52,702 nt of DNA from positions 1-52,702 of the IMG/VR virus record IMGVR_UViG_3300032277_000005; one strand, 5' to 3'. The notes beneath the pieces were generated by a model. That model was not told the DNA's origin. It made no database searches and saw only the letters and a program-made list of their open reading frames with translations. The position numbers and the translations under genes were made by a program. This document shows positions 128 to 52,702 of the stretch, in pieces. Position 1 is the stretch's first letter. Every line of letters begins with the position of its first letter. Origin of the DNA: a virus (taxonomy: Duplodnaviria > Caudoviricetes).

Positions 128-452
128 ACTCCTCGGCTACAGGGAAGGAAGCCCAGAAAACATTATCTGTAAGATAGACGCAATGCAAGATAGAGACTCA
201 ACTCTGTGGATAGGTGCATTCCGCTATTACTGTGGTCGCATGACAATAGCTGTAAGCGGATTTTGCGAAACAATGATCAGCAACATTGAAAACATTCCAG
301 ATGAAGCAGTGTCAATAATTAAGCGCGACCTAATTGAGGCTTTTGCTGATGACGACCGGGATCGCGAAGTTGGGAATGCCGTAAAACGACTTGGTATGGA
401 CTGCGATCGGCAGAAATGGCTGGAGGTTCTAGCCGCGATAAGCGGAGCCTAA
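90..452 (+). CDS. cassette-borne hypothetical protein
   Basis: ORF 57..452, likely ATG at 90; bounded by GTTAGGCTC (62) and GAGCCTAAC (445-453). Confidence 0.75.
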   Translation: MNDDELIAKISEKLLGYREGSPENIICKIDAMQDRDSTLWIGAFRYYCGRMTIAVSGFCETMISNIENIPDEAVSIIKRDLIEAFADDDRDREVGNAVKRLGMDCDRQKWLEVLAAISGA

Positions 453-499
453 CAAAGAGATAGACGGCGCACCGCGTCCGTTGCATCGAGGTGTTATGA
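447..499 (-). mobile_element. attC-like site (short family A)
   Basis: GCCTAAC...GTTATGA hairpin; shares AGAGAT..GCATCGAGG(T/C)GTTA with sites at 2317 and 44279. Confidence 0.8.
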
Positions 500-1351: not shown

Positions 1352-1425
1352 TTATAACCCCTTGCTATGCGGCGCGACGTTAGGATCGTCCGGCGCGTAG
1401 CGCGAACATGAGCAAGTTGTTATGG
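1352..1425 (-). mobile_element. attC-like site
   Basis: Minus reading CCATAAC-AACTT-GCTCATGT...GCATAGC-AAGGG-GTTATAA; extra C in L''. Confidence 0.85.
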
Positions 1426-1812: not shown

Positions 1813-1875
1813 CCATAACGCCATAGCTAAATGGGCCACGCAGTTTGTGGCTCCAATTTCAGTGACTTGTTATAC
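1813..1875 (-). mobile_element. attC-like site
   Basis: Minus reading GTATAAC-AAGTC-ACTGAAAT...ATTTAGC-TATGGC-GTTATGG; 40 bp identical to the site at 45606. Confidence 0.9.
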
Positions 1876-1889: not shown

Positions 1890-2075
1890 ATGGATAGAAG
1901 AAACGAAGACTACGAGCTAGCTGCAAAAATTGTTGACGAAGTGCTAAATAAGTCAAGCTTGCATAGACTACCTCACGAAGACGGGACATCTCCAACCTAC
2001 TGCCTTGGGCTAGAGGAAGGAGGAACTCTGCCATATATTGCGGAGCTGTTAGCTAAACACAGGCTTGGCGTATAA
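1890..2075 (+). CDS. cassette-borne hypothetical protein
   Basis: RBS GAGG; ends GTTATACG and CGTATAAC; stop overlaps TAAC. Confidence 0.7.
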   Translation: MDRRNEDYELAAKIVDEVLNKSSLHRLPHEDGTSPTYCLGLEEGGTLPYIAELLAKHRLGV

Positions 2076-2130
2076 CGCTTTAATTAAAAGGCTGCGCTTT
2101 TCGCAGTCCGTTTTGAACTACTTGTTAGCT
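2070..2130 (-). mobile_element. attC-like site
   Basis: Minus reading AGCTAAC-AAGTA-GTTCAAAA-CGGACTGCG..CGCAGCC-TTTTAAT-TAAAGC-GTTATAC; textbook attC spacing. Confidence 0.9.
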
Positions 2131-2142: not shown

Positions 2143-2322
2143 ATGAAAAAACCAACGATTGATGATTTGAAAAAAGAGCTTGAAGCTGCAAGCAAGCGGA
2201 TAGAAATTCAAGAACGGTATTTAACTGAAGCGGACACTGTGCGCCGACTTATTGTTGCAGCGGGGCTGATTGATGAGGATAAGTTTCGACAAGCAGAGGA
2301 ACTTATAAGTAAGGACAGCTAA
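2143..2322 (+). CDS. cassette-borne small coiled-coil protein
   Basis: GGAGG RBS then ATG 2143 (MKKPTIDDLKKEL); ends GTTAGCTGT and ACAGCTAAC. Confidence 0.7.
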   Translation: MKKPTIDDLKKELEAASKRIEIQERYLTEADTVRRLIVAAGLIDEDKFRQAEELISKDS

Positions 2323-2369
2323 CAGAGAGATCGGAGGCGCGTAGCGACCTCTGCATCGAGGCGTTATAG
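2317..2369 (-). mobile_element. attC-like site (family A)
   Basis: AGCTAAC-AGAGAGATC...GCATCGAGGC-GTTATAG. Confidence 0.8.
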
Positions 2370-4675: not shown

Positions 4676-5096
4676 AATAATGAAGATCAGGCTGCTGTCT
4701 GATTCAGCGACAGTACCAAGCAGGGCGACCAAGGGCAGCGCTGGTTATGACCTGAGTTGTGACAAGGGTTTTATCCTACAGCCCAATGAGCGGCGACTGA
4801 TCGGCACTGGGTTGGCTATAACGCTGCCTGTAGGGTCGTGGGGCGAAGTAAGGTCACGATCAGGGTTGGCGTCAAAGTACGGCATCGACGTTCAGGCAGG
4901 GACGATAGACCAGGATTATATCGGGGAGTTAATGGTGCTGCTGGTTAACAACGGCAATAGGCCGCTACGGTGTGAAACCGGCGACAGGATTGCACAGCTA
5001 GTCGTCCAAAAATGCATGAAGCCAAATATTATGGTAGTGCCGTCGCTGGATAAAACAGACCGTGGCGATGGTGGCTTTGGGCACACTGGGAAATAA
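4668..5096 (+). CDS. dut: trimeric dUTPase
   Basis: All five motifs: AGYDL, RSG, GTIDQDYIGE, GDRIAQL, RGDGGFGHTG. Confidence 0.95.
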   Translation: MSEIMKIRLLSDSATVPSRATKGSAGYDLSCDKGFILQPNERRLIGTGLAITLPVGSWGEVRSRSGLASKYGIDVQAGTIDQDYIGELMVLLVNNGNRPLRCETGDRIAQLVVQKCMKPNIMVVPSLDKTDRGDGGFGHTGK

Positions 5097-5151
5097 CGCT
5101 TTAGCTAAATCGCGCAGCGTAGCGGAGTCGAATTTCAGCGCGTTGTTAGGC
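5091..5151 (-). mobile_element. attC-like site abutting the dut stop codon
   Basis: Minus reading GCCTAAC-AACGC-GCTGAAAT...ATTTAGC-TAAAGC-GTTATTT. Confidence 0.9.
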
Positions 5152-5442: not shown

Positions 5443-5685
5443 ATGAACCCAACACTTAAATACAGATGCGGAGAGTGCGGCGACTCGCACAACGACCACG
5501 ACGAAGCACTCGAGTGCTGCCCTCCACAAATAAACGAAGTGTATCTGTGTGGGCACTGCCATGAAGACTACGGCCACGACGAAGACGCCGCCGAAAATTG
5601 CTGCGATGACGTTGACCCGGACGCCCTACCAATAGTAAGCCAACAAGAACTCGAAGCTGCAGGCCAAATGAGGCTCTGCGCATAA
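5443..5685 (+). CDS. Cys-rich acidic small protein
   Basis: Two CxxC...CC repeats. Confidence 0.7.
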   Translation: MNPTLKYRCGECGDSHNDHDEALECCPPQINEVYLCGHCHEDYGHDEDAAENCCDDVDPDALPIVSQQELEAAGQMRLCA

Positions 5686-5738
5686 CGCTTTAGGTAAAGC
5701 GCCGAGGTACGAGGTCGATTTTGACCGACTTGTTATAT
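5680..5738 (-). mobile_element. attC-like site
   Basis: Minus reading ATATAAC-AAGTC-GGTCAAAA...CTTTACC-TAAAGC-GTTATGC. Confidence 0.9.
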
Positions 5739-5751: not shown

Positions 5752-5940
5752 ATGAAATTTGAAGATAGCACTGGATGGATTTGGTTTTTTGTTGACGAGT
5801 ATGGCGATGTAGGCACTGAATTTTTTTGGCTTGAAGAAAAGGAAGGTGAAATGCCGTACCAAATGGAAAAGGCTAGTTGGGATACTGAGAATAAAAGCTC
5901 TATACCAACAAGGGCAAGAATAGCGGAATTAAAGATATAA
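5752..5940 (+). CDS. cassette-borne hypothetical protein
   Basis: GGAGG RBS and ATG 5752; ends GTTATAT and ATATAAC. Confidence 0.7.
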   Translation: MKFEDSTGWIWFFVDEYGDVGTEFFWLEEKEGEMPYQMEKASWDTENKSSIPTRARIAELKI

Positions 5941-6022
5941 CCGCGGATTTAACCGGAGAGGAATGGAGCAATGAGTGAAACGAATAGCGGAATGACGAAT
6001 CCGGTTGAAACCTTTGTTAGGG
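5935..6022 (-). mobile_element. attC-like site (family B) encoding RBS, ATG and leader of the next gene
   Basis: ATATAAC...GGAG..ATGAGTGAAACG...GACGAATCCG...GTTAGGG. Confidence 0.85.
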
Positions 6023-6306
6023 TGCCGTGGCCTGAGGATAAATTGCCCTTGAAATTGAAAAACCCTAAGTGCCCGATTTGTGGCGGGGCATTATTTATTA
6101 CTGGGGTTAACGCTTGTGAGCAGGAGGATAACGGCGACTGGATAGCAAGCGAGATTGACATTGATTGCGAAAACGAGCCGGACATTGACAGTGACGAATG
6201 GGAAGACTGGCACAAGTGGCACTACAGCATGCCATATGTGGATTGGCTGCCGATAGACCGGCAGATTTTGAAAATGGTGCAGAGGACGTTTTACTTTGCA
6301 CCCTAA
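5971..6306 (+). CDS. cassette-borne zinc-ribbon protein starting inside attC
   Basis: CPICGG motif; ends GTTAGGGTGC and GCACCCTAAC. Confidence 0.7.
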   Translation: MSETNSGMTNPVETFVRVPWPEDKLPLKLKNPKCPICGGALFITGVNACEQEDNGDWIASEIDIDCENEPDIDSDEWEDWHKWHYSMPYVDWLPIDRQILKMVQRTFYFAP

Positions 6307-6360
6307 CCTTTACTTAACCGGTGCAGCTTTGCTGCATCCGCGTTTAAGTTGTTGTTATGT
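6301..6360 (-). mobile_element. attC-like site
   Basis: Minus reading ACATAAC-AACAA-CTTAAACGCGGATGCAGC-AAA-GCTGCACCGGTTAAG-TAAAG-GTTAGGG. Confidence 0.9.
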
Positions 6361-6445: not shown

Positions 6446-6492
6446 TAGTTTCAAGAGTTAGGGAATGGCCCTAACAAAACGGAGCTAAGACA

Positions 6493-7121: not shown

Positions 7122-7123
7122 AA

Positions 7124-7185
7124 ACATAACCGATAGCTTAACGGCTGGCGCTTTTGCCAGTCCGATTTACAGCGCCTTGTTAGGC
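7124..7185 (-). mobile_element. attC-like site
   Basis: Minus reading GCCTAAC-AAGGC-GCTGTAAA...GTTAAGC-TATCG-GTTATGT. Confidence 0.85.
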
Positions 7186-7199
7186 GCGGGAGAGACTAG

Positions 7200-7409: not shown

Positions 7410-7410
7410 C

Positions 7411-7488
7411 GCCTAACCCCATAAACACGCGGAAACGAAACAAGCGAAGCGGCGTGTAGTGAATCGCCGTGATTTTACATTGTTATAT
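7411..7488 (-). mobile_element. attC-like site (own cassette apparently truncated)
   Basis: GCCTAAC...CACGCGG..CCGTGATTTT..GTTATAT; no matching ATATAAC end downstream. Confidence 0.75.
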
Positions 7489-43040: not shown

Positions 43041-43183
43041 AAAAACAAAGAACAGGCCGACGCGATAAAGAACGGGATAAGGCATCCGGCACCCAGCACC
43101 ATTAGCTCAGGTGTGCTGGAAAGCCACGCCAAGATAAACAAAGCAATGGACGCTATAAGCAAGCTTGGTATAAACCGTTTCAA
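43007..43183 (-). CDS. small two-TM membrane protein (not in ORF track)
   Basis: TTG start; MKRFIPSLLIASIALFILAWL..LGAGCLIPFFIASACSLFF. Confidence 0.4.
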   Translation of the reverse strand: MKRFIPSLLIASIALFILAWLSSTPELMVLGAGCLIPFFIASACSLFFHFSDFVKALL

Positions 43184-43217
43184 AGTCAGCCCCTATGTTA
43201 AGTAAGGGCTGATTATA

Positions 43218-43430
43218 TCACTCTCCAGCTTTCGCTATAAATTCACCGCACCACCATATCTCTCGAACTGTCGGGAAGTAAAAATTATAAGTGTCGAGAA
43301 ATGCAAGCTCGCTATCTTGCGCCTGTCTTACAGGAGGGTATCGCCTACATTCCCCTAGCGTGAAAATTTCGTCGTCTCCATCGGAAAGAAAATCCCAGTA
43401 TTTGCAATCAATACATTTATCCTTTTTCAT
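43218..43430 (-). CDS. small Cys-rich phage protein
   Basis: CIDCKYW..GECRRYPP..WCGEF. Confidence 0.7.
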   Translation of the reverse strand: MKKDKCIDCKYWDFLSDGDDEIFTLGECRRYPPVRQAQDSELAFLDTYNFYFPTVREIWWCGEFIAKAGE

Positions 43431-43433
43431 GGG

Positions 43434-43715
43434 CTAATCAAACTTCTCAAGCTCAAACTCAAACCGGCTAGGCTTTCGCGTCGCTTCAACCTCGATAGTC
43501 TCATAGGTATTAGTGTTGTTATTATAAGTCTCTATCGTTGTCGTCCCTCCGTATGTCCTTACACTATCCACGTCAATATCCTTTGTTCGCCCGGTTGAGT
43601 GGTTGTAGGTGCGTATATTCTGCCCTGCCTCCACTCCCGCCGGCTCTTTCCAGTAGTCGCTGGCCGAGGCTGTGACTGTGGTCGTTGCTAGCATTGTCGC
43701 CATAAGTAGTTTCAT
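43434..43715 (-). CDS. exported hypothetical protein
   Basis: Signal peptide MKLLMATMLATTTVTASA. Confidence 0.6.
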   Translation of the reverse strand: MKLLMATMLATTTVTASASDYWKEPAGVEAGQNIRTYNHSTGRTKDIDVDSVRTYGGTTTIETYNNNTNTYETIEVEATRKPSRFEFELEKFD

Positions 43716-43734
43716 TGTATATCCCTATTGTTGA

Positions 43735-43989
43735 TTAATGTACAATCTCTTCGCTTGTCAAATCCTCGCTACAAAGTCTAACCATGGTTAGCAAATACTC
43801 GAGGTCTAAGGACAGTCGCCCAAGCCAATCCAGGTCTTCTGTATGCGCAGCTATTTCTTCGGAAATACAGCTTAAAGCATAGTCCAGCTCATTGGACGCC
43901 TCTCGTGTATCTTCCAAAATACTGATCTCAGTCAACAGGCTGGCAAGTTTGGTAATTAAATTAGACTCATTGTGCTTATTTTGTGTCAT
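43735..43989 (-). CDS. hypothetical protein
   Basis: GAGG RBS; helical acidic ORF. Confidence 0.6.
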   Translation of the reverse strand: MTQNKHNESNLITKLASLLTEISILEDTREASNELDYALSCISEEIAAHTEDLDWLGRLSLDLEYLLTMVRLCSEDLTSEEIVH

Positions 43990-44032
43990 AATATCCTCTC
44001 TCCGATTGGCGGTTTCACATCCCGCTATCCTT

Positions 44033-44058
44033 ATCCCGCTTAATTGCGGGATTTTTTT
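44033..44058 (+). terminator. intrinsic terminator (plus orientation)
   Basis: ATCCCGC-TTAATT-GCGGGAT-TTTTTT. Confidence 0.65.
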
Positions 44059-44278
44059 GTCTAAACATCACCTACCAATACTTTCTTAATAACCTCAAGC
44101 CTCTCCTCGTCCTTGGCCTTTTCACGATTGCCTTGCTTGGCTGATGATTTTCTCCATAGCGTCAATTGCTGCCATCACTGTGCCTGGTTGTGCTGTTAGT
44201 TGTTTATTCATTGGTTGCCTCGTTTTTAAATTGATCAGCAATGTCCGCGAATATGATCGTCTTGCCGTATAATTATGT

Positions 44279-44327
44279 ATATAACACCTCGATGCAGCGG
44301 GCGGAGCCGCCGATCTCTTTGTTAAAT
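44279..44327 (+). mobile_element. attC-like site (family A)
   Basis: ATATAAC-ACCTC-GATGCAGC..GCCGATC-TCTTT-GTTAAAT. Confidence 0.8.
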
Positions 44328-44519
44328 TGCCGCAAACTCAGATACAACCGTGTTTTCGTAAGAATTCCCCTCAGTTGTCATCCAGTGAAAGTTGCCGTCC
44401 TCGTCTTTTTCCCAGTACGCGACAGCTTTGCGCCAATTAGTTTTTATCAAATAATGAGTGTGGCGCTTTGGTTTGGCGGTCCCGTTATTTACAATCCAGT
44501 TAATCGTTTGTTTTGCCAT
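44322..44519 (-). CDS. cassette-borne hypothetical protein
   Basis: MAKQTINW..; ends GTTAAATTG (44321) and CAATTTAAC (44532). Confidence 0.7.
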   Translation of the reverse strand: MAKQTINWIVNNGTAKPKRHTHYLIKTNWRKAVAYWEKDEDGNFHWMTTEGNSYENTVVSEFAAI

Positions 44520-44533
44520 CAATCGAACCCTCA

Positions 44534-44590
44534 ATTTAACAAAGCAGTCAAAACGACTGCGTAAACTTGCGTTTTACCTCGTGGTTATGC
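44534..44590 (+). mobile_element. attC-like site
   Basis: ATTTAAC-AAAGC-AGTCAAAA...TTTTACC-TCGTG-GTTATGC. Confidence 0.85.
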
Positions 44591-44785
44591 GCCTTTCTTT
44601 AAGGCTCTTTTACTGTAGTCTCTGTATATTTTGTGGCCGCATTTCCAGCACCTTGGTTCGCTCTTAGCAGTAGATTTGGCTGTGTCATAGCCACAGTTGC
44701 CACAAGGCTCGTACCATATATCAAAATCACGTAGCGCATAACAACGCGCTGAACTCGGATTCGTCTCTTTACTCGCTTCGCTCAT
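44585..44785 (-). CDS. cassette-borne zinc-ribbon protein starting inside attC
   Basis: MSEASKETNP.. with CGNC and CWKC; ends GTTATGCGC and GCGCATAAC. Confidence 0.7.
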   Translation of the reverse strand: MSEASKETNPSSARCYALRDFDIWYEPCGNCGYDTAKSTAKSEPRCWKCGHKIYRDYSKRALKKGA

Positions 44786-44817
44786 TTCGTTCCTCACCGG
44801 TTAGCTCAAGGTTAGGC
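44736..44817 (+). mobile_element. attC-like site (family B, leader-encoding)
   Basis: GCATAAC-AACGC-GCTGAACT-CGGA...CCGGTTAGC-TCAAG-GTTAGGC. Confidence 0.9.
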
Positions 44818-45063
44818 GCTAGGGCCGTAGGACTCAAATTCAACCCAGTCAGAAATCATCTGCCAAACTTGGTTATACATAGGCCAGTCTTTCTCGACCA
44901 CAACACAGTCAATGTCAGCGCAATCTCCAGAGTCAAGATCCTTATCAGGCTGCTTGATACTTGATAGCTCCAATAAAATATTATTGAGCTTCAGCTTTGA
45001 CTCAGTGGGCAGCAAATCAATATCTTTCCTCTTGAGTACTAAGTACCTATTTTCACGTTCCAT
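44812..45063 (-). CDS. cassette-borne phage hypothetical protein
   Basis: MERENRYLVLKRKD..CVVVEKDWPMY; ends GTTAGGCGC and GCGCCTAAC. Confidence 0.7.
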   Translation of the reverse strand: MERENRYLVLKRKDIDLLPTESKLKLNNILLELSSIKQPDKDLDSGDCADIDCVVVEKDWPMYNQVWQMISDWVEFESYGPSA

Positions 45064-45082
45064 AATTCTCACTCCGTAACGC

Positions 45083-45154
45083 GCCTAACAACAAATTGTT
45101 GCAGACTGTTCAATCGCTGCGCTCAATCACAGCGGCAAAATAAAAAGGTTAGCT
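45083..45154 (+). mobile_element. attC-like site
   Basis: GCCTAAC-AACAA-ATTGTTGC...GCAAAAT-AAAAAG-GTTAGCT. Confidence 0.85.
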
Positions 45155-45367
45155 GCCCTTAAACTTCTGCATTATTTCTTTGCATTTATCAATATCACCA
45201 CTTCGCCTAAGATCGTCTATATCCATCTCACCCATAGCTCGTCTATCTTCTGACCAAGGGTCGCCATCGTGTTCGTATTCATCATAATCAATTACCGCGT
45301 TTAGAAGCAGCTCAAAAGCAGCTAACAACACGTTCAAATCTGACTCGCTACACTTCGTTTCGCTCAC
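45149..45367 (-). CDS. cassette-borne protein starting inside attC
   Basis: AGGAG RBS and GTG start within attC; ends GTTAGCTGC and GCAGCTAAC. Confidence 0.7.
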   Translation of the reverse strand: MSETKCSESDLNVLLAAFELLLNAVIDYDEYEHDGDPWSEDRRAMGEMDIDDLRRSGDIDKCKEIMQKFKGS

Positions 45368-45388
45368 AATTTAACTCCTACGTTATAC
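45320..45388 (+). mobile_element. attC-like site (leader-encoding)
   Basis: AGCTAAC-AACAC-GTTCAAAT...ATTTAAC-TCCTAC-GTTATAC. Confidence 0.9.
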
Positions 45389-45392
45389 GGCT

Positions 45393-45584
45393 TTATCTGC
45401 TGCTGGTAACATCACAGCCGTGTTCTTGGAGCCACTTTTTTACAACGTAGTGAAATTGACGGTGGATTACGTCTATAGCCGCTTTGCTGACCTCGGGCCT
45501 CATCGGCGACTCTTCTAAATTCTTAAGTTTAAGCTGGTCGAGCAGCGCCTTAGCGTCCGCGTCTTGGATAATAATTGCTCGCAT
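45393..45584 (-). CDS. cassette-borne hypothetical protein
   Basis: AGGAG RBS; ends GTTATACGGC and GCCTTATAAC (9/10 complementary). Confidence 0.7.
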   Translation of the reverse strand: MRAIIIQDADAKALLDQLKLKNLEESPMRPEVSKAAIDVIHRQFHYVVKKWLQEHGCDVTSSR

Positions 45585-45605
45585 TGGTCTCTCCTACCTG
45601 TCGCC

Positions 45606-45670
45606 TTATAACAAGGCACTGAAATTGGAGCCACAAACTGCGTGGCCCATTTAGCTTGATTGCGTTATGC
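45606..45670 (+). mobile_element. attC-like site
   Basis: TTATAAC-AAGGC-ACTGAAAT...ATTTAGC..GTTATGC; 40 bp identical (inverted) to 1825..1864. Confidence 0.9.
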
Positions 45671-45838
45671 GCCCATAGCCCTTAAGCAAAGCTTGCATGT
45701 GACTTTAGTTTTTCTGGTTGTCGTTCCTTTTCTCACATACCCGCAGGCCGCTCCGTCATAACCTCTATCTCGATAATCGCGTACAGCGTAATCAGGTGCG
45801 TTTTTTAAAATTGTCGGGTCGTAGTAATGTACTTTCAT
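45665..45838 (-). CDS. cassette-borne 57-aa protein (not in ORF track)
   Basis: MKVHYYDPT..ACG..VTCKLCL; GAGG RBS; ends GTTATGCG and CGCATAAC. Confidence 0.65.
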   Translation of the reverse strand: MKVHYYDPTILKNAPDYAVRDYRDRGYDGAACGYVRKGTTTRKTKVTCKLCLRAMGA

Positions 45839-45863
45839 TTCACGCCTCTAATGTATTAAATTC

Positions 45864-45919
45864 GCATAACAAGTCGTCAATCGGACGGCTGCGCCAGCCG
45901 GTTACTTTTGGCGTTATGC
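45864..45919 (+). mobile_element. attC-like site
   Basis: GCATAAC-AAGTC-GTCAATCGGACGGCTG..CAGCCGGTTAC-TTTTGGC-GTTATGC. Confidence 0.85.
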
Positions 45920-46177
45920 GCCAAGTCTTCGTATTATGGCGGCAATTTTCTTTGTCATCGTTCCCCAAAAGCTGCCGTTAATCCATTCGTAGTTGGCACC
46001 TCTATCTTGGGTTTCAACAACTTTTGCACACTCTTCAATGGCCTCCGATCTAACGTCTGCCAATATCTTTAAATGATCGCTGTATCTAACCCATTCGCCA
46101 GCGGCGTCTACCTTTTCAAAAAGGCTCTGTCCCGTGTTGGGGCAATACCCAACGTCAAATTCATATCTATCAACCAC
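45914..46177 (-). CDS. cassette-borne phage protein (second gene of a two-gene cassette)
   Basis: GEWVRYSDH..AIEECAK..IAAIIRRL. Confidence 0.65.
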   Translation of the reverse strand: MVDRYEFDVGYCPNTGQSLFEKVDAAGEWVRYSDHLKILADVRSEAIEECAKVVETQDRGANYEWINGSFWGTMTKKIAAIIRRLGA

Positions 46178-46364
46178 AGCAACCTCCGTTCACTTTCTCA
46201 GCGTCTTTATATTCTTTGTCAATATCTTCTATTAACCCAACCTCAATTAACGGTATAGGCGTCCCATCTTCTAAGGTGGGTCGCCCGCACCATCCGCACC
46301 GATAGCGCATAACAACACGCTCAAGGCTCGCCTTCGGCTGGACTTCGTTCTTCGCTTCGCTCAT
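46170..46364 (-). CDS. cassette-borne protein starting inside attC
   Basis: MSEAKNEVQ..; CGWCG; cassette ends GTTATGCGC (45913) and GCGCATAAC (46305). Confidence 0.65.
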   Translation of the reverse strand: MSEAKNEVQPKASLERVVMRYRCGWCGRPTLEDGTPIPLIEVGLIEDIDKEYKDAEKVNGGCCG

Positions 46365-46391
46365 CTCTCGCCCCTTAGCTCTGGGTTATAT
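46307..46391 (+). mobile_element. attC-like site (family B, leader-encoding)
   Basis: GCATAAC-AACAC-GCTCAAGG...CCTTAGC-TCTGG-GTTATAT. Confidence 0.9.
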
Positions 46392-46625
46392 TTCCTTATC
46401 TAGTTCTGTTTTAGTCACGTATATACAATCACCTTCGCAAGAGTAATCGGCGTAAAATATCCAACCATCATCCTTGCCGTAATCGCGCTCTTCGTAATCC
46501 ACTGGATCTCTGGCGTAGTCTTTTGCTTTAGCCTTCGCCCATTCAACAGCCTTGTCAGCGTCAGTAAATGGGTGCGCGGTTGTATCTCTATGCCTGTCCT
46601 TCCAAATCGCTATGTAAATTTCCAT
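46386..46625 (-). CDS. cassette-borne hypothetical protein
   Basis: Ends GTTATATTT and AAATATAAC. Confidence 0.7.
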   Translation of the reverse strand: MEIYIAIWKDRHRDTTAHPFTDADKAVEWAKAKAKDYARDPVDYEERDYGKDDGWIFYADYSCEGDCIYVTKTELDKEI

Positions 46626-46647
46626 ACTTGCAAACCTCTTAGTTAAA

Positions 46648-46677
46648 ATATAACCAGGCGCTCAACTCGGATTCGTC
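46648..46677 (+). mobile_element. half attC site (R''-L'' arm only)
   Basis: ATATAAC-CAGGC-GCTCAACT-CGGATTCGTC matches the left arm of 44736; no L'/R' follows. Confidence 0.65.
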
Positions 46678-46833
46678 GCTATTCTCACCCCGCAAAACAC
46701 CTTTCTCGCACAATATGCGCTTTCTCATATAGCCCAGACTCAACAATCATTTCGGCAGATTCTTTGTTCATAGTGCCAGATAGACACCATCGCGGGTTAT
46801 CGTCCCCGGTGTACCAGTATTTGATTCTGTACA

Positions 46834-47895
46834 TTAAATACCATCCATAACGCTATTAGCGAAGCGTACAAGCCCAATATCTAACGATTCAATCAGCGCA
46901 GCCCTTTGTGCCTCGTTTGCCTCTTCCAGTATCTCAGCGGCCCCTGTTGTATCTTCACCCTCACAAGCCTCTGTAAGCGCGTCTAGCATATCGCGGTATG
47001 TTGCCCATCCTTTGTCCTCTATCGCCTTGCAGAGCTGCTTACCTTTCGTCTTATCGCCCTTCGGGAATGAGTTATACAGGGAGATTTTTATCATGTCGTC
47101 GAGTTCACGCCACCACAGCACATAATCAACCGGGTCGCCTTTGAGTAGTTCGTGGAATGTATTGGCTTGCTCTTTCGAGTGCTGGAGGTATTCGACCTCA
47201 CCAGTATCAAGACTTTCAAGCCCTTCATGCTGGTTGAGAATGTTAATGGCTTCCTCAATACGAGCCAAGCCACCAGACTGAGGCCATGACTTGTAAGCGC
47301 GTTTGATTAGCGTTTTCTTCGCCATCTCCCCGGCCCACTTGCCAGCCCACGGGCCGCCTCTAGCCTTTGATGAGTTTCTGACCTCTAGTATTTCGCCAGC
47401 GGTCATGCGGTCAACAAGATAGCCGCCAGATGTAAGTTTAGCCACACAGTACCCACCTATCAGGTTTTTTAGAGGGTTGGCAGCGTCAAACCTATTCGGG
47501 TCAAAAGCCTTAAATTCATGGCCGGGAATTTCAGTCATACTCTTCCACGTCACTACGTCGCCTTCGTATGCAAGCTCTGCTTTTGCCCATTCAATAGCCC
47601 CGGCATCTGTGGCTAGTTTAACCAATCCCTTAAAACTAAGATCAAGGCAAACCATGCCGCCACGAGGCACCAGATAGGCGTGAGCAGACGCAGGGTTCAA
47701 GCTAATGCCAATGGCGGCCACGTTTAAAATTGCGTTACGCAGTGAGTCCTGGTTATTCTCCGCCGTCTTTAGTGTTAAATCGTTTTTCATTATCTGTTGC
47801 TTGGCAAACAGACATTCAGTTTCAAACACTAAATTATAGTTATTCTGCTTGGCAAACGACTCTTTTAATTCAACTAACTGATTAACGATGCTCAT
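46834..47895 (-). CDS. recT: RecT-family single-strand annealing protein
   Basis: AAIGISLNP..AYLVPR..SFKGLVKLA..EMAKKTLIKRAYKSWP; likely ATG at 47895. Confidence 0.85.
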   Translation of the reverse strand: MSIVNQLVELKESFAKQNNYNLVFETECLFAKQQIMKNDLTLKTAENNQDSLRNAILNVAAIGISLNPASAHAYLVPRGGMVCLDLSFKGLVKLATDAGAIEWAKAELAYEGDVVTWKSMTEIPGHEFKAFDPNRFDAANPLKNLIGGYCVAKLTSGGYLVDRMTAGEILEVRNSSKARGGPWAGKWAGEMAKKTLIKRAYKSWPQSGGLARIEEAINILNQHEGLESLDTGEVEYLQHSKEQANTFHELLKGDPVDYVLWWRELDDMIKISLYNSFPKGDKTKGKQLCKAIEDKGWATYRDMLDALTEACEGEDTTGAAEILEEANEAQRAALIESLDIGLVRFANSVMDGI

Positions 47896-48155
47896 TATGC
47901 TTCCCCTATGCTTGCAACGTAGTCGAGACATTTTTTCTCGATGAGTTTTGGCCAAATATCCATGTCACTTATGTTTAAGTCCTGCCATGTGGTCAATAGC
48001 GTTACGTCAGCAACTTCAAGCGTTGGGCCTCCTGCTGGCTCGCTATCTTCAACAGCCCCGGTAAGTTTTGCCGGCGTGCCGGGGAAATACTCGAACTCAA
48101 TCTCAACAGGCACATTGCCATCCCCAATCTCAGTTTTTAGTGTGTAGTCAGGCAT
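47895..48155 (-). CDS. hypothetical protein
   Basis: Coupled ORF. Confidence 0.6.
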   Translation of the reverse strand: MPDYTLKTEIGDGNVPVEIEFEYFPGTPAKLTGAVEDSEPAGGPTLEVADVTLLTTWQDLNISDMDIWPKLIEKKCLDYVASIGEA

Positions 48156-48421
48156 TAGTCTTCTCCGATTAGTAATTTATCAACAATAGCCGCACGTTTC
48201 TTGTCGCCCTTGAGTCGCCACGCCTCGGCAGCCGCTAGCATTGTTCCCGGTAACGCAGTGAGACTGCCTAGTGCTTTTTCCCTATCCGGTCGCCTATCCC
48301 CAGGCGGGGTAGACAGTGCCTCCTCCTCAGTCCAGCCGCGGCGTACGCGCTGATGAACAAGTTCTGAATCAAGCCCCATACGCTCGGCCTTCTGCTTTAG
48401 CGTACCCACAAAGCGGCTCAC
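48155..48421 (-). CDS. small HTH-like protein
   Basis: TLKQKAERMGL..RVRRGWTEEEAL. Confidence 0.55.
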   Translation of the reverse strand: MSRFVGTLKQKAERMGLDSELVHQRVRRGWTEEEALSTPPGDRRPDREKALGSLTALPGTMLAAAEAWRLKGDKKRAAIVDKLLIGED

Positions 48422-48651
48422 AGTAGCGCCTCCAGTTCTTTCTGTGCCATTTCGATTCGATTTTGTACTGCTTCGACCTTTAGCGCTTTGAGCGCGTCAC
48501 TCTCTGCGCGGGCGTCGATAATATTAAATTCAACCTCAATAACGTCTGACACCAGAATATATTCGTTGTTGTAACTGCCAATCTTCCCCACACCTTCGGC
48601 TCCATGCTTTATATGCCGATAAATCCCTACCTTTACTTTTTGTGCTGTCAT
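48418..48651 (-). CDS. hypothetical protein, first gene of the leftward operon
   Basis: GGAG RBS and ATG at 48651. Confidence 0.6.
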   Translation of the reverse strand: MTAQKVKVGIYRHIKHGAEGVGKIGSYNNEYILVSDVIEVEFNIIDARAESDALKALKVEAVQNRIEMAQKELEALL

Positions 48652-48679
48652 GCTTTCTTCTCCGTTTGCTTGAGAGCTA

Positions 48680-48708
48680 ACAATAGCACCGCGCATTTAA
48701 GAATGCAA
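48680..48708 (-). promoter_or_regulatory. leftward early promoter
   Basis: TTGCAT-17 bp-TATTGT on the minus strand. Confidence 0.6.
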
Positions 48709-48722
48709 TGGTTTATATACGC

Positions 48723-48750
48723 TTGACATATAAGGGCAGCATGCTAGAGT
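48723..48750 (+). promoter_or_regulatory. rightward early promoter
   Basis: TTGACA-16 bp-TAGAGT with extended -10 TG. Confidence 0.6.
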
Positions 48751-48772
48751 GTTGGCTCAATAAGGAGATCCA

Positions 48773-48934
48773 ATGAAATATTTACTAGCACCTGTGAACT
48801 TAACCAAAGAGCAGCACACATGGCTTGCGAAGCAAAGCAAAGACACGCTTGAATCTAAATCAGTGATTATTCGCCGTCTAATCCAGTCTGAAATGGACAA
48901 GGCAAGCGCGTTTATTAAGAAGGGCGAGTCATGA
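48773..48934 (+). CDS. ribbon-helix-helix (CopG/Arc-like) regulator (not in ORF track)
   Basis: AGGAG RBS; MKYLLAPVNLTKEQHTWL..SKSVIIRRLI. Confidence 0.55.
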   Translation: MKYLLAPVNLTKEQHTWLAKQSKDTLESKSVIIRRLIQSEMDKASAFIKKGES

Positions 48935-49113
48935 AAGTCTACATAATATGCGCAATTATCTTGGTTGTAGCATTCTTGCAAGGCTGCGGCTATGACGACG
49001 AGACCCTTGCTGCCGAGCATTATGTAAGCATGGTGTGTTCTGGGGCGTGGCCAGATTATCGAAGTGTACAGCCTGATTGCACAATACCGCCAGCACGACC
49101 AAATCAATACTAA
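48931..49113 (+). CDS. small lipoprotein
   Basis: Signal peptide with LQGC lipobox. Confidence 0.6.
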   Translation: MKVYIICAIILVVAFLQGCGYDDETLAAEHYVSMVCSGAWPDYRSVQPDCTIPPARPNQY

Positions 49114-49163
49114 CGCCATGGCTAGCCGGAGAGGAGCGAAATGAGCAAAGCGAATGAAGACGA
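49108..49163 (-). mobile_element. half attC site (L'-R' arm, family B)
   Basis: TACTAAC-GCCATG-GCTAGCCGGAGAGGAGCGAAATGAGC.. resembles the corresponding arm of 44736 and 5935. Confidence 0.6.
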
Positions 49164-49407: not shown

Positions 49408-49461
49408 AGCTCACCTAGCCTTAGCGGGCGAACGACAGACTTATCACCTGTCTGGTGAGTG
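49408..49461 (+). ncRNA. candidate structured 5' leader RNA
   Basis: CTCACC/GGTGAG outer stem enclosing GCC..GGC and GACAG..CTGTC hairpins; TTGATA-16 bp-TATACT promoter just upstream. Confidence 0.45.
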
Positions 49462-49503
49462 CTTTAACTTTCGATACAAACCTAATTGATAGAGGTTGTA
49501 CCT

Positions 49504-50028
49504 ATGGAACAAAACAAAAACATTGAAAATGGAAGTGATGTAAGCACTTCATCTTGCTGTATATGTGGCGAAATAAAGCCAGTTAGTTTGTTTTACAAAC
49601 ACGCAAAGACTAAAGACGGGTGCTCCTCTCGGTGCAGAGAGTGTCAAAAGGCGTATGCGCGGCAACACCGTATAGATAACAAAGATTATTACCTAAGAAA
49701 AAATAGAGAATACAGCAGAACAGAAAAATATAAGCAAAAAAAAAAGGATTATTATCAAAGTGAAGTTGGGCGAGAGTCACAGCGCAAGGCCAAAGTGGTA
49801 TACAAAAGCAAAAATGTAACAAAGGTTGCAGCGTCAGCAAAGCTCAACGGGGCAATTCGCGCCGGGGATATATTAAGGCCAGAGATATGTGGAGAATGCG
49901 GCAAGCCGTCCAAGGTAATCCACGGGCATCATGATGACTATCTGTTGCCGCTAGAGGTTAGGTGGATGTGTCCTATGTGCCACATGGCTTGGCATGGGAA
50001 GAATGGGCCAGGCCTGAATGGAGATTGA
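49504..50028 (+). CDS. HNH endonuclease-like protein
   Basis: CCIC..CREC N-terminus; CGECG..HGHHDDY..RWMCPMCH. Confidence 0.75.
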   Translation: MEQNKNIENGSDVSTSSCCICGEIKPVSLFYKHAKTKDGCSSRCRECQKAYARQHRIDNKDYYLRKNREYSRTEKYKQKKKDYYQSEVGRESQRKAKVVYKSKNVTKVAASAKLNGAIRAGDILRPEICGECGKPSKVIHGHHDDYLLPLEVRWMCPMCHMAWHGKNGPGLNGD

Positions 50029-51141: not shown

Positions 51142-51678
51142 ATGGAAAACATTAACGATTTATCAAACATGGTTGTGAGTAATGCGAGGAGCGGCCAGGC
51201 TGAACCAGTAACTCAGTCGAAATTCACAAAGGAAGAACGCGCCCCGATTGCTTACTTCTTTGTGCGCTTGTCTGAAATCTACGGCACAGAGTACAGCCGC
51301 CAACTGGTCGATAACCATGCAGAGACTTGTGCAAAACGCGAGTGGGGCGACAAGCTAAAGCATTACGACAGGGCGCAACTAGAAAAAGGCATGGAGTATA
51401 TTAAAAACCTGATCGTTGATGATGACGAAGGCTGGAAGTTTATGAATATCGGCCGGTGTGTTGGCGCGATACTCGAAGCAAACAGGTCTACAGCCGCGCA
51501 CAAAGCTCTACCGGCCCCAGAGGGCGAAAGAATGGAGAAAGATGACGCAATGGCAAGACTGGCAGCAATCAGGGCGGAATCATGCCCAGAGCCAGCCGAA
51601 CCCAAACGCATAGATACAACATCGGTAGAGTCAGAGCTAGAGGCTATGCCGGTAATCAGGAGAGATAGTGATGAGTAA
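51142..51678 (+). CDS. lambda P-like helicase loader
   Basis: Follows initiator; FVRLSEIYG..AKREW..QLEKG pattern. Confidence 0.5.
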   Translation: MENINDLSNMVVSNARSGQAEPVTQSKFTKEERAPIAYFFVRLSEIYGTEYSRQLVDNHAETCAKREWGDKLKHYDRAQLEKGMEYIKNLIVDDDEGWKFMNIGRCVGAILEANRSTAAHKALPAPEGERMEKDDAMARLAAIRAESCPEPAEPKRIDTTSVESELEAMPVIRRDSDE

Positions 51679-52069: not shown

Positions 52070-52133
52070 GAATAACGCCAGAGCTGTGCGGCGTGGAGCG
52101 CAGCGTAACGTCCGAACGAGCGACTTGTTAAGC
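52070..52133 (-). mobile_element. attC-like site
   Basis: Minus reading GCTTAAC-AAGTC-GCTCGTTC...GCACAGC-TCTGGC-GTTATTC. Confidence 0.85.
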
Positions 52134-52149: not shown

Positions 52150-52578
52150 ATGATGGAGATTGAAAAAATTGGCGAGTTAATCAAGACCCAGGACAATCGG
52201 ATAACCGACCAGCCTATTTTTATCGTGCAGCAAAAACACAGGGAATGGGGTTATGACTCTGCTTATTGTGATGATTACAAATGGCTAGAAACTGAAAGCG
52301 GTGACTACTGTGAAGCAGATGAAGAAATAATTGAAGAACTTGAAATTAAAGAAAATGAATTGTTTGAAAGCACAAAGCCGTATGAAAAACACTATTACAA
52401 GGATCATTGGAAATTTGTAACTTCATGCTTCACAGAGCAAGGTTGCAAAGATTACATTGAAAGTAATGGGCACAATTTGAGAGAGCCAAGAATTTACGCT
52501 GAAGGTAGTTATAGAAATGAAGAATTTAGGGCAGTACGAAATATGCTAATTGAGCAGGCCGCCTGCAAGGCTGCTTAA
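52150..52578 (+). CDS. cassette-borne Ead/Ea22-associated-type phage protein
   Basis: TQDNRITDQP..FVTSCFTEQGCKDYI..NGHNL..PRIYA..SYRNEE; ends GTTAAGCA and TGCTTAAC. Confidence 0.7.
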   Translation: MMEIEKIGELIKTQDNRITDQPIFIVQQKHREWGYDSAYCDDYKWLETESGDYCEADEEIIEELEIKENELFESTKPYEKHYYKDHWKFVTSCFTEQGCKDYIESNGHNLREPRIYAEGSYRNEEFRAVRNMLIEQAACKAA

Positions 52579-52643
52579 CCCTTAAAGCAGCGCGTTGATT
52601 TGAGCGCAGCGAAAAGCAATCCGCCTGACTTTTGTTGTTAGGC
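52573..52643 (-). mobile_element. attC-like site (same locus as 1..68)
   Basis: GCTTAAC...GTTAGGC. Confidence 0.85.
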
Positions 52644-52702
52644 TCAGGAATTACGGTACATACTATGAATGACGATGAACTAATAGCAAAGATAAGTGAA
52701 AA
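52576..52702. repeat. 127-bp terminal direct repeat (copy 2)
   Basis: Identical to 1..127. Confidence 0.95.

What the first reader, a model, noticed from the sequence alone, without database searches (positions are those of the whole stretch)
44279..46677. Second, contiguous cassette array (8 cassettes) in the leftward early operon behind recT
Seen: attC-like sites at 44279, 44534, 44736, 45083, 45320, 45606, 45864, 46307 and a half site at 46648, each separating one short minus-strand gene (two genes in one case). The array mirrors the right-arm arrays about the divergent promoter region at 48.7 kb. Inference: cassettes accumulate where an early phage promoter plays the role that Pc plays in an integron.
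Basis: partly seen in the sequence, partly recalled or inferred. Interest (0 to 1): 0.88.

Follow-up and report, generated by a model that had tools for sequence, protein, structure and literature searches.

The report
Reversed integron-type cassette array in phage
A complete phage genome with no integrase carries integron-type recombination hairpins between its tiny early genes, lying on the opposite strand, relative to the genes, from bacterial integrons, which suggests that phages keep their own pool of swappable gene cassettes.

Summary
A covariance model (R1) built only from 11 right-arm sites finds all eight left-arm sites at the stated coordinates on the minus strand (E 3.7e-6 to 5e-3). 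It finds nothing with E below 0.6 across the 7.5-44.2 kb structural region.

The sites belong to the attC family of integrons. The same model hits attC arrays beside integron integrase genes in Cycloclasticus, Methylophaga and Sedimenticola. A model built only from bacterial attCs (R2) finds 7 of the 8 sites in return.

The polarity is reversed. In an annotated class 3 integron the model matches the strand opposite the cassette genes, the attC bottom strand. In this phage, and at 54 of 71 sites in other viral contigs, it matches the coding strand, and the upstream ORF ends at the TAA of the crossover box TAA|C.

The phage has no tyrosine recombinase. A Sedimenticola prophage and a viral contig carry full intI genes (two more contigs partial matches) at the downstream end of such arrays.

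Best reading: phage-type [attC + ORF] cassettes recombined by an integron integrase supplied in trans. Recombination itself is not shown.

The parts
44279..44327 (-). attC-type site S1 (short type, 49 nt), last site of the array
   Evidence: R1 E 3.6e-5. Not found by bacterial model R2 at E<=1. DNA MFE shows R box, spacers and bulged stem. 91% identical to a site in viral locus L006.
44122..44241 (-). 39-aa ORF after the last site (open-ended last unit)
   Evidence: ORF list. No family search done.
44322..44519 (-). 65-aa ORF; stop codon is the TAA of the S1 5' box
   Evidence: No Pfam or PHROG match.
44534..44590 (-). attC-type site S2
   Evidence: R1 E 6.3e-4. R2 E 5.1e-5. The site alone recurs in contigs of runs X2 and X3.
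44585..44785 (-). 66-aa ORF starting inside S3 (MSEA leader); stop in the S2 box
   Evidence: Only weak sub-threshold zinc-ribbon matches.
44736..44817 (-). attC-type site S3 (long type, 82 nt) holding the RBS and ATG of the next ORF
   Evidence: R1 E 3.8e-6. R2 E 1e-6. 83% identical to sites in L007 and L015.
44812..45063 (-). 83-aa ORF; stop in the S3 box
   Evidence: phrog_7432 and phrog_7810, unknown function. Nearest Atlas clusters are viral hypothetical proteins.
45083..45154 (-). attC-type site S4
   Evidence: R1 E 5e-3. R2 E 9.3e-3.
45149..45367 (-). 72-aa ORF starting (GTG) inside S5; stop in the S4 box
45320..45388 (-). attC-type site S5 (long type) holding the start of the next ORF
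   Evidence: R1 E 1.9e-3. R2 E 2.9e-4.
45393..45584 (-). 63-aa ORF; the one case of eight whose stop lies just upstream of the box, not in it
45606..45670 (-). attC-type site S6, 94% identical in reverse complement to right-arm site 1813-1875
   Evidence: R1 E 3.8e-6. R2 E 1e-6. Identity. It causes the assembly-graph break in run X1.
45665..45838 (-). 57-aa ORF; stop in the S6 box
45864..45919 (-). attC-type site S7
   Evidence: R1 E 2.8e-3. R2 E 4.5e-5. DNA fold z -2.3. 92% identical to sites in L007 and L015.
45914..46364 (-). two overlapping ORFs (87 aa, 45914-46177; 64 aa, 46170-46364) forming one unit with S8
   Evidence: This unit alone (45913 to 46390) is tiled by contigs of three other metagenome runs, with unlike flanks. 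A 90%-identical protein cluster exists.
46307..46391 (-). attC-type site S8 (long type, 85 nt) holding the ATG of the 64-aa ORF
   Evidence: R1 E 3.7e-6. R2 E 7e-6.
46386..46625 (-). 79-aa ORF between the half site and S8; stop in the S8 box
   Evidence: No family match.
46648..46690 (-). half site: the 3' arm and 3' box of a long-type site, with no 5' box; promoter-proximal edge of the array
   Evidence: Aligned to S3, S8 and S5. No R1 or R2 hit.
46685..47955 (-). 49-aa ORF and recT (373 aa) upstream of the array
   Evidence: RecT relatives found.
44033..44052 (+). plus-strand terminator-like hairpin with T run, facing the end of the leftward array
52070..52133 (+). right-arm attC-type site
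   Evidence: R1 E 1.7e-7. R2 E 1.7e-6.
52573..52643 (+). right-arm attC-type site lying in the terminal repeat (also seen as 1-68)
   Evidence: R1 E 0.084. R2 E 0.01. Repeat seen.
447..499 (+). right-arm attC-type site (short type)
   Evidence: R1 E 4.3e-7. R2 E 0.086.
1352..1425 (+). right-arm attC-type site
   Evidence: R1 E 1.3e-6. R2 E 6.4e-4.
1813..1875 (+). right-arm attC-type site, twin of S6
   Evidence: R1 E 4.4e-9. R2 E 1.6e-9.
2070..2130 (+). right-arm attC-type site
   Evidence: R1 E 4e-8. R2 E 8e-9.
2317..2369 (+). right-arm attC-type site (short type)
   Evidence: R1 E 6.1e-6. Not found by R2 at E<=1.
5091..5151 (+). right-arm attC-type site after the dUTPase gene; nearly identical to a site in L007 and L015 with unrelated flanks
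   Evidence: R1 E 1.3e-9. R2 E 6.1e-9. Alignment.
5680..5738 (+). right-arm attC-type site
   Evidence: R1 E 1.4e-8. R2 E 2.1e-9.
5935..6022 (+). right-arm attC-type site (long type) holding the ATG of ORF 5971-6306
   Evidence: R1 E 0.055. R2 E 9e-3. Alignment.
6301..6360 (+). right-arm attC-type site
   Evidence: R1 E 4.7e-8. R2 E 4.5e-6.
7124..7185 (+). right-arm attC-type site
   Evidence: R1 E 5.8e-8. R2 E 1.8e-8.
7411..7488 (+). right-arm attC-type site, last before the late genes
   Evidence: R1 E 1.9e-5. R2 E 0.15.
49100..49160 (+). remnant: the 5' half of a long-type site with a truncated leader ORF
   Evidence: Alignment. Sequence.

Best explanation
The stretch 44279-46391 is an array of eight integron-type attC recombination sites (49-85 nt imperfect hairpins). 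It lies in the leftward early operon of a complete 52.6-kb tailed phage genome that has no integrase. It is one of two mirror-oriented arrays that together hold 21 sites.

The sites belong to the same sequence and structure family as attC sites of bacterial integrons, but their polarity relative to the genes is reversed. The strand that is recombinogenic in integrons, the bottom strand, is here the coding strand. That strand reads 5' box ..TAAC, a 5-6 nt unpaired spacer, a stem carrying an extra base on its 3' arm, a 5 nt spacer, and 3' box GTTA...

The mobile unit is therefore [attC, then RBS, then ORF]. The ORF ends at the TAA of the next site's TAA|C, which is where an integron integrase cuts. 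In three left-arm sites the RBS and start codon lie inside the hairpin loop. That arrangement keeps the start and its ORF together only under this polarity.

Most likely mechanism (inferred): an integron integrase supplied in trans folds and recombines these sites during infection. The source would be a host chromosomal integron or a co-resident prophage that encodes IntI. Units would be excised and inserted, shuffling small early accessory genes among phages. The genes would be expressed by read-through from the early promoters.

Shown here: site family, stem covariation, homology to integron attC sites, strand polarity, stop codon at the crossover point, absence of a recombinase in this phage, conservation limited to the sites, and one unit recurring in other contexts. 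Inferred: catalysis by IntI, supply in trans, a single transcript, and the function of the cargo.
For: 1. Detection by an independent model. R1, built from 11 right-arm sites only, finds 8 of 8 left-arm sites (E 3.7e-6 to 5e-3), and nothing with E<0.6 in about 36.7 kb of late genes. It gives 0 hits in 761 kb of related prophage loci and 0 hits in 5 RecT-relative loci.

2. Structure. TAAC and GTTA pair in 21 of 21 sites. All 7 stem pairs show changes on both sides. 95.2% of cells are paired against 73.1% in shuffles. The covariation score is 0.559 against 0.123, reached by 0 of 500 shuffles, and slid controls give at most 0.094.

3. Link to integrons. The shared pattern was found in bacterial genomes. 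4 of 5 of those tested carry intI above the TIGR02249 cut-off. The R1 sites lie next to intI in Cycloclasticus (10 sites), Methylophaga and Sedimenticola. Model R2, built from 18 bacterial attC sites, finds 7 of 8 left-arm sites at E<=0.0093. All 20 of its window hits at E<=1 lie on the sites.

4. Polarity. In the annotated class 3 integron of plasmid NC_017097.1, R2 hits the attC of blaOXA-256 and of aac(6')-Ib on the intI3 strand, opposite to both genes (2 of 2). In Cycloclasticus all 10 hits are on the intI strand and the ORFs on the other strand. In the phage all hits are on the coding strand. This geometry matches the published bottom strand: AAC in the 5' R' box, extra bases near L'' (passages of PMC5027507).

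5. Stop codon at the crossover. An open frame of at least 35 codons ends at the TAA of the 5' box on the model strand at 16 of 21 window sites (7 of 8 in the left arm) and at 54 of 71 sites in other viral loci. On the opposite strand the counts are 3 of 21 and 14 of 71. In bacterial integrons they are 5 of 17 and 7 of 17.

6. Conserved sites, unrelated cargo. All 10 blastn matches of 44000-46900 to the other fetched loci and the rest of the window fall inside sites S1, S3, S6 and S7. Site 5091-5151 is nearly identical to a site in L007 and L015, with unrelated flanks on both sides.

7. A unit in other contexts. Contigs of three seawater metagenome runs from other studies cover only 45913-46390, the unit S8 plus its two ORFs. 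Likeness stops at 45913 and at 46388-46390, while the contigs continue unlike the window.

8. Integrase. This phage has no tyrosine recombinase candidate. The Sedimenticola prophage has CI, CII, primase, terminase, portal, head and tail genes plus an ordinary integrase, and it carries an IntI (407 bits) at the downstream end of a same-strand array. Viral contig L128 has an IntI of 394 bits and L130 and L131 have partial intI-like matches, in the same layout. 15 of 15 R2 hits in these four loci lie on the intI strand.
Against: No recombination event was observed. Read laying found no joints, but all four runs are kept as contigs, which cannot show rare events.

Neither this phage nor 10 of 10 other array-bearing viral records tested has an integron integrase. 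The enzyme must be assumed to come from elsewhere, and the host is unknown.

The hairpins are not unusually stable as single-stranded DNA. Z-scores run from -2.3 to +1.6. The three long sites fold worse than shuffles, and the MFE reproduces the model structure clearly in only 3 of 8.

Most boxes miss RYYYAAC or GTTRRRY at one position (read).

Blocks of identity confined to the site, with both flanks unrelated, are not what a single IntI crossover at one box predicts. They fit site spread or homologous exchange as well.

A6, the training set of R2, was picked with R1, so the reciprocal test is not fully independent. The alignment used for covariation was fitted to the model.

Several viral loci are near-duplicates (L007 and L015; L009 with L026 and L016; parts of L013 and L021), so the 71 sites are fewer independent observations.

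The short site S1 is not found by the bacterial model.
Confidence: 0.68

Rival explanations
1. The sites are used by the phage's own homologous recombination functions (RecT, a NinB-like protein, a Holliday junction resolvase). They would act as conserved intergenic linkers at which related phages exchange genes by short homology, with no integron integrase involved.
For: The phage encodes RecT, a NinB-like protein and a resolvase. Identity between this phage and unrelated viral contigs is confined to the 50-75 nt sites, with both flanks unrelated. No integrase in this phage or in 10 of 10 other array-bearing viral records.
Against: This does not explain the strict strand asymmetry, with about 40 bits between strands. 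It does not explain stem covariation with sequence turnover, ORFs ending at the TAA|C cut point, or the same family flanking cassettes next to intI in bacteria and in IntI-bearing phages. Most site pairs within the phage are only about 50% identical, which is poor substrate for homology.
Confidence: 0.15
2. The hairpins act in the mRNA, as processing, stability or translation-coupling elements between short cistrons. Their likeness to attC is ancestry without present recombination.
For: The asymmetric strand is always the transcribed sense strand in both arms. Each site sits just upstream of the next RBS, or contains it.
Against: In bacterial integrons the same polarity lies on the antisense strand of the cassettes, so the family's conserved function is at the DNA level. 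One unit recurs with different flanks that end at the boxes. IntI genes sit at the end of such arrays in a prophage and three viral contigs.
Confidence: 0.1
3. A dead relic: a piece of a bacterial integron array once picked up by the phage and now decaying.
For: Phages carrying fragments of chromosomal integrons are described (PMC9892861, section 3.1). Two half sites exist.
Against: The genes are on the wrong strand for a captured array. There are two arrays in mirror orientation within the early operons. The cargo resembles viral small proteins; this is a lead only. The same design is seen at 54 of 71 sites in other viral loci.
Confidence: 0.05
4. Chance palindromes or ordinary terminators.
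For: The terminator scan picks up two of the sites weakly. Folding energies are near those of shuffles.
Against: Model E-values, 0 hits in 761 kb of control loci, and stem covariation. No T runs follow most sites.
Confidence: 0.01

Closest known systems
Integron gene cassette arrays and their attC sites (bacterial chromosomal and mobile integrons)
   Same: Same site family by two covariance models. Same architecture: R boxes with AAC/GTT, unpaired spacers, a bulged L stem and a variable loop. Same layout of one small promoterless ORF per unit. The sites are conserved and the cargo is unrelated.
   Different: The ORFs lie on the attC bottom strand, so the attC precedes its ORF within the unit. 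No intI and no attI in this genome. There are two arrays in mirror orientation inside phage early operons. The seven fully bounded left-arm units are very small, 227-472 bp (from the coordinates). Three left-arm sites contain the start codon.
[quoted passage not shown] 2023, PMC9892861 (read: outline, sections 3.1, 3.3, 3.4 and term searches; supplements closed)
   Same: Phage genomes with attC sites and no integron integrase. That paper showed that five of six tested phage attC sites recombine with IntI1.
   Different: That paper reports 17 CALINs with a minimum of two sites each, and calls same-direction cassettes 'most typical of bacterial arrays'. The parts I read describe neither a reversed gene-to-attC polarity, nor arrays filling both early arms (21 sites in 52.6 kb), nor IntI at the downstream end of a co-directional array. 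Its supplementary tables, which I could not see, may bear on this.
Promoter-early stem-loop (PeSL) modules of T4-type phages and conserved linker sequences of lambdoid phages (recalled; not checked in any call)
   Same: Repeated intergenic elements flanking small early genes in the plastic regions of phage genomes, proposed to mediate modular shuffling.
   Different: Those are thought to work through homologous recombination and carry promoters. The sites here belong to the integron attC family, carry no promoter consensus above chance, and covary as hairpins.
Integrons with an intI gene co-oriented with the cassettes, the 'inverted integrase' group such as Treponema (recalled; not checked in any call)
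   Same: intI and the cassette ORFs are on the same strand, as in the Sedimenticola prophage and viral contigs L128, L130 and L131.
   Different: As I recall, in that group the array lies downstream of intI. Here the ORFs run towards intI, and the attC polarity relative to intI is the canonical one.

Membership tests
attC recombination site (integron) | Inverted R boxes containing the conserved AAC / GTT triplets (consensus RYYYAAC / GTTRRRY) | tested here: met
   TAAC and GTTA are present and paired in 21 of 21 sites. The full 7-mers of the eight left-arm sites match the consensus at 5-7 of 7 positions (read).
attC recombination site (integron) | Hairpin with an L-box stem kept by covariation, an unpaired central spacer, extra bases on one arm and a variable terminal loop | tested here: met
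   7-bp stem, with all 7 pairs changed on both sides in some sequences. Spacers of 5-6 and 5 nt. One bulged column on the 3' arm. Site lengths of 49-88 nt.
attC recombination site (integron) | Same family as sites that flank cassettes next to an integron integrase gene | tested here: met
   R1 hits arrays beside intI (TIGR02249 above cut-off) in three bacterial genomes. R2, built from bacterial sites, hits 7 of 8 left-arm sites and both attCs of an annotated class 3 integron.
attC recombination site (integron) | Score above threshold with the reference attC covariance model (IntegronFinder) or HattCI | not testable with these tools
   That model is not available here. Rfam has no such family; the one sub-threshold Rfam hit in the region is unrelated.
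attC recombination site (integron) | Recombined by an integron integrase as folded single-stranded DNA, with cleavage between A and C of the bottom-strand R' box | not testable with these tools
   Indirect evidence only: ORF stops at TAA|C, and likeness of a shared unit ending at the boxes.
Canonical integron gene cassette | ORF on the attC top strand, followed by its attC, so that insertion at attI puts it sense to Pc | tested here: not met
   The ORFs are on the model (bottom) strand at all eight left-arm sites. The annotated class 3 integron shows the opposite for 2 of 2 cassettes.
Complete integron | intI gene with an adjacent attI and a cassette array | tested here: not met
   No tyrosine recombinase candidate in the complete 52.7-kb record.
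[quoted passage not shown] | Two or more attC sites in a cluster with no integron integrase nearby | tested here: met
   8 sites within 2.1 kb and 13 in the other arm. No intI.

The most novel reading that the evidence does not exclude
Phages maintain their own integron system with mirror-image logic. Cassettes are [attC then ORF] units, with the recombinogenic bottom strand as the sense strand. Each ends in the stop codon that forms the TAA|C cut site. They are strung along the early operons and transcribed towards a phage-borne IntI where one is present, as in the Sedimenticola prophage and viral contig L128 (partial intI-like matches in L130 and L131). IntI-less phages such as this one would borrow the enzyme. 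This would give a phage-specific cassette pool, plausibly host-takeover or anti-defence genes. It could move between phages, and it would be silent if captured by a bacterial integron, just as bacterial cassettes would be silent in the phage.
Probability: 0.45. Interest if true: 0.92.

Novelty: new variant of a known kind. Interest (0 to 1): 0.82.

Why it matters
Integrons are regarded as bacterial devices, and phage attC clusters have been reported as rare passengers. Here an integrase-less phage has 21 attC-type sites organising both of its early operons. The same design recurs in at least a dozen other viral contigs. In a prophage and three viral contigs it ends in an integron integrase gene (full in the prophage and one contig, partial matches in two).

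The reversed polarity gives a testable rule: which strand recombines, where the cut falls, and why start codons can sit inside the site.

If IntI acts on these sites, this would be a site-specific route to the modular mosaicism of phage early regions. It would also give a way to recover phage accessory genes as discrete units, and a new angle on the unsolved question of how cassettes and their attC sites arise.

Tried and rejected
- Megablast of 43000-49000 against the phage collection: no match.
- A crude hairpin scan of my own gave false positives in late genes and missed true sites. I replaced it with covariance models.
- The exact 9-mer GTTATGCGC with one mismatch was not above chance window-wide: 24 found, 16 expected, and 4 of 100 shuffles reached 24. 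Only the clustering was informative.
- The repeat finder found little, because the sites differ in sequence.
- tblastn with the terminase and with RecT found only distant phages, under 60% identity.
- RecT relatives (5 loci) and giant-protein relatives (47 loci) carry no sites. They served as controls but gave no close kin for a gain/loss comparison.
- The 87-aa cassette protein has only weak viral relatives and 3 database clusters. This gave no context evidence.
- Pfam and PHROGs: 8 of 10 left-arm proteins had no match. One had only sub-threshold zinc-ribbon matches and one matched two PHROGs of unknown function.
- The Atlas gave only viral hypothetical clusters, which are leads.
- Rfam: nothing on the sites.
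- Promoter scan at chance level.
- DNA folding energies not distinctive.
- GC skew follows the coding strand and gives no separate evidence on replication direction.
- No RNA holder was listed among sequencing runs, so the single-transcript idea is untested.
- Read laying showed no joints. All runs are contigs, so this says nothing about recombination. The break at 45607-45656 in run X1 is the repeat of S6 at 1813-1875, not an event.
- 17 of the 34 genome contigs pattern hits are Helicobacter pylori, each a single match. The one I scanned (L028) has no R1 hit at E<=0.01. I treated these as false positives.
- 6 of 22 pattern-matching viral loci had no R1 hit at E<=0.01 with default filters.
- Literature: searches found no paper describing reversed-polarity arrays or 'phage integron', 'phage-borne integron', 'phage-encoded integron' or 'viral integron' among the listed results. 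This covers only that library.

Full report
**What the window is.** The window is a complete IMG/VR virus record of 52,702 bases with direct terminal repeats. Bases 52577-52702 repeat bases 1-126. It encodes a terminase, tail genes and a 2,565-aa protein on the plus strand from about 7.5 to 43 kb. Two early arms diverge near 48.7 kb. The leftward arm carries recT (46834-47955, minus strand). The rightward arm runs through the terminal repeat to about 7.5 kb and carries HNH endonucleases, a NinB-like protein, a Holliday junction resolvase and a dUTPase. A search with the integron integrase family TIGR02249 found no candidate of any tyrosine recombinase, although the same search rings in all 14 control genomes.

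**Checking the observation.** Reading 44000-47000 showed intergenic elements of the form ..TAAC, 40-75 nt, GTTA.. on the minus strand. The hexamer TAACAA clusters at 44537-46310 on the plus strand, and TTGTTA clusters at 60-7480. To avoid circularity I aligned 11 sites from the right arm only. RNAalifold gave a consensus with the TAAC/GTTA box, unpaired spacers and a 7-bp stem with one bulged column on the 3' arm; 6 of its 11 pairs showed compensatory changes. From this I built model R1.

Between 7.5 and 44.2 kb nothing scores better than E 0.65. The opposite strand of the same sites scores about 10-15 bits against 25-56 bits. In all, 21 sites have E<0.1: 13 on the plus strand and 8 on the minus strand.

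On the 21-site alignment, TAAC/GTTA pair in every sequence. All seven stem pairs show changes on both sides. 95.2% of cells pair, against 73.1% in shuffles. The covariation score is 0.559 against 0.123 and is reached by 0 of 500 shuffles. Slid controls stay at or below 0.094. That alignment was fitted to the model, which favours the structure.

The half site at 46648 is the 3' half of the long site type without a 5' box. A converse remnant lies at about 49100-49160.

As single-stranded DNA the eight sites are not unusually stable, with z from -2.3 to +1.6. Published attC sites can also have very low folding probability (passage of PMC5371416).

**Are they attC sites?** A pattern taken from three of the sites matched 21 loci in IMG/VR. 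My own rough estimate is that well under one chance match would be expected there. R1 then found 71 sites at E<=0.01 in 16 of the 22 viral loci fetched, with up to 8 per locus. Several loci are near-duplicates of each other, so these are fewer than 71 independent observations.

The same pattern matched 34 loci in bacterial genomes. 17 are single Helicobacter pylori matches, which I regard as false. The rest include marine Gammaproteobacteria. Of five such genomes, four carry an integron integrase above the curated cut-off, and in three the R1 sites lie directly beside it:
- Cycloclasticus: 10 sites.
- Methylophaga: the attC of the first cassette.
- Sedimenticola: an array described below.

Model R2 was built only from 18 attC sites of these bacterial arrays. 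It finds 7 of the 8 left-arm sites at E<=0.0093, and 10 of the 13 right-arm sites at E<=0.01. All 20 of its window hits at E<=1 fall on the sites. The training sites were picked with R1, so this reciprocal test is not fully independent.

R2 also finds both attC sites of an annotated class 3 integron, plasmid NC_017097.1, with E 6.2e-9 and 0.0081. R1 gave 0 hits in 761 kb of prophage loci related through the giant protein and 0 hits in five RecT-relative loci.

**Polarity.** In the class 3 integron, both R2 hits lie on the intI3 strand, opposite to blaOXA-256 and aac(6')-Ib. In Cycloclasticus all 10 hits lie on the intI strand, with the cassette ORFs (165-342 aa) on the other strand. The models therefore describe the attC bottom strand.

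This agrees with the published description. On the bottom strand the conserved AAC lies in the 5' R' box, and the extrahelical bases lie near L'', which is the 3' arm (passages of PMC5027507).

In the phage every hit is on the coding strand of its arm. Strand composition supports minus-strand coding over 44-48 kb, with GC skew of -0.16 to -0.19 against positive values elsewhere.

A frame test makes the contrast quantitative. I counted sites where an open frame of at least 35 codons ends at the TAA of the 5' box:

| Set | On the model strand | On the opposite strand |
|---|---|---|
| Window | 16 of 21 (7 of 8 in the left arm) | 3 of 21 |
| Other viral loci | 54 of 71 | 14 of 71 |
| Bacterial integron sites | 5 of 17 | 7 of 17 |

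[quoted passage not shown] The phage unit therefore runs from the C of one box, through the hairpin, RBS and ORF, to the TAA of the next box. By this count the left-arm units measure 472, 249, 282, 234, 337, 227 and 263 bp, plus an open-ended last one.

Three left-arm sites (S3, S5, S8) and right-arm site 5935-6022 contain the RBS and start codon of the following ORF inside the loop. Only under this polarity do the start and its ORF stay together when a unit moves.

**Signs of modularity.** blastn of 44000-46900 against all the other loci fetched and the rest of the window gave 10 matches. All lie within sites S1, S3, S6 and S7, at 81-94% identity, and none lies in an ORF. Site 5091-5151 is nearly identical to a site in two unrelated viral contigs, with both flanks unrelated.

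Contigs from three seawater metagenome runs of other studies cover only 45913-46390, which is S8 with its two ORFs. Likeness stops at 45913 (the G of G|TT) and at 46388-46390, while the contigs run on unlike the window. These are short contigs that tile the unit, and no single contig spans it.

The dUTPase gene is 94% identical in protein to one in another viral contig. Nucleotide likeness (84%) ends at the box, and the next gene differs.

The cargo proteins are mostly orphans. The nearest Atlas clusters are viral hypothetical proteins, which is a lead only.

**Where the integrase could come from.** Ten other array-bearing viral records have no integron integrase. Four of them are at least 91% complete.

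The Sedimenticola locus is a lambdoid prophage. Reading from the bacterial flank it holds:
- an ordinary integrase (phrog_1);
- an IntI of 407 bits;
- an array of small same-strand ORFs, many ending in TAAC, with attC-type sites between them, read directly in the sequence (two found by R1, three by R2);
- a CI-like repressor, a CII-like protein, a primase and a helicase;
- terminase, portal, head, tape measure and tail genes.

One of its array ORFs is 50% identical to window ORF 51668-51940.

Viral contig L128 has an IntI of 394 bits, and L130 and L131 have partial IntI matches. In each, same-strand ORFs ending in TAAC, and sites, lie upstream of the integrase. In these four loci, 15 of 15 R2 hits lie on the intI strand.

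So the polarity of attC relative to intI is the canonical one. Only the genes are flipped: they run towards intI.

**Interpretation.** The best-supported reading is a phage-type cassette array recombined by an integron integrase supplied in trans. I hold this at about 0.68, because no recombination event was seen, the host is unknown, and site-only identity blocks would also fit homologous exchange at the sites (rival, 0.15) or an RNA-level role (0.10).

Published work shows that attC bottom strands fold and recombine more readily on the lagging-strand template (PMC5371416). With genes co-oriented away from the central early region, the sense strand would be that template if replication starts there. 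This is inference; nothing here locates the origin.

**Comparison with the literature.** Qi et al. 2023 (PMC9892861; I read the outline, sections 3.1, 3.3 and 3.4, and term searches) report 17 phage CALINs with at least two sites each, and show that five of six tested phage attC sites recombine with IntI1. In the parts I read they do not describe reversed polarity, arrays filling both early arms, or IntI at the downstream end of a co-directional array.

**Verdict.** I class it as a new variant of a known kind, with interest 0.82.

Noticed in passing
L070 (G004:C10:1-20000) and L132 (20001-40000): The Sedimenticola prophage carries both an ordinary phage integrase (3801-4898, phrog_1) and an integron integrase (5386-6429, 407 bits). 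The two are adjacent, at the end of the leftward operon and downstream of a same-strand attC/ORF array.
   Followed up: partly
window 49408-49476 (+): Sub-threshold Rfam match to int-alpA RNA (30.2 bits against a gathering score of 35.8; E 0.003), just upstream of the HNH endonuclease gene at 49486.
   Followed up: no
window 35343-43040 (+): A 2,565-aa ORF at the end of the late operon. Its C-terminal 599 aa has relatives of 48-55% identity in 47 viral or prophage records, none of which has attC-type sites.
   Followed up: partly
window 590-1336 and 49486-50028 (+): Two HNH endonuclease genes in the rightward early arm. The first sits as a unit between attC-type sites 447-499 and 1352-1425.
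   Followed up: no
L023 505-540: After a dUTPase gene 94% identical in protein to the window's, the other viral contig has a minimal site of about 30 nt (TAAC, 18 nt, GTTA). It looks like an attC with the central part deleted.
   Followed up: no
window 1-126 and 52577-52702: The terminal repeat of the record begins inside an attC-type site. The repeat is probably the overlap of a circular assembly, not a physical genome end.
   Followed up: no
window 44033-44052 (+): A strong plus-strand terminator-like hairpin with a T run lies between the end of the leftward array and three further minus-strand ORFs (43218-43989). No plus-strand gene ends nearby, so its role is unclear.
   Followed up: no
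window 46335-46390 and run contigs: The 5' half of long site S8, with its RBS and MSEAK leader, occurs in the other metagenome runs joined to a different 3' continuation. The leader-bearing site type seems to be shared by several different cassettes.
   Followed up: partly
L028-L059 (Helicobacter pylori loci): The search pattern matches one place in each of 17 H. pylori records. The one scanned with R1 had no hit. Probably a conserved unrelated sequence.
   Followed up: partly
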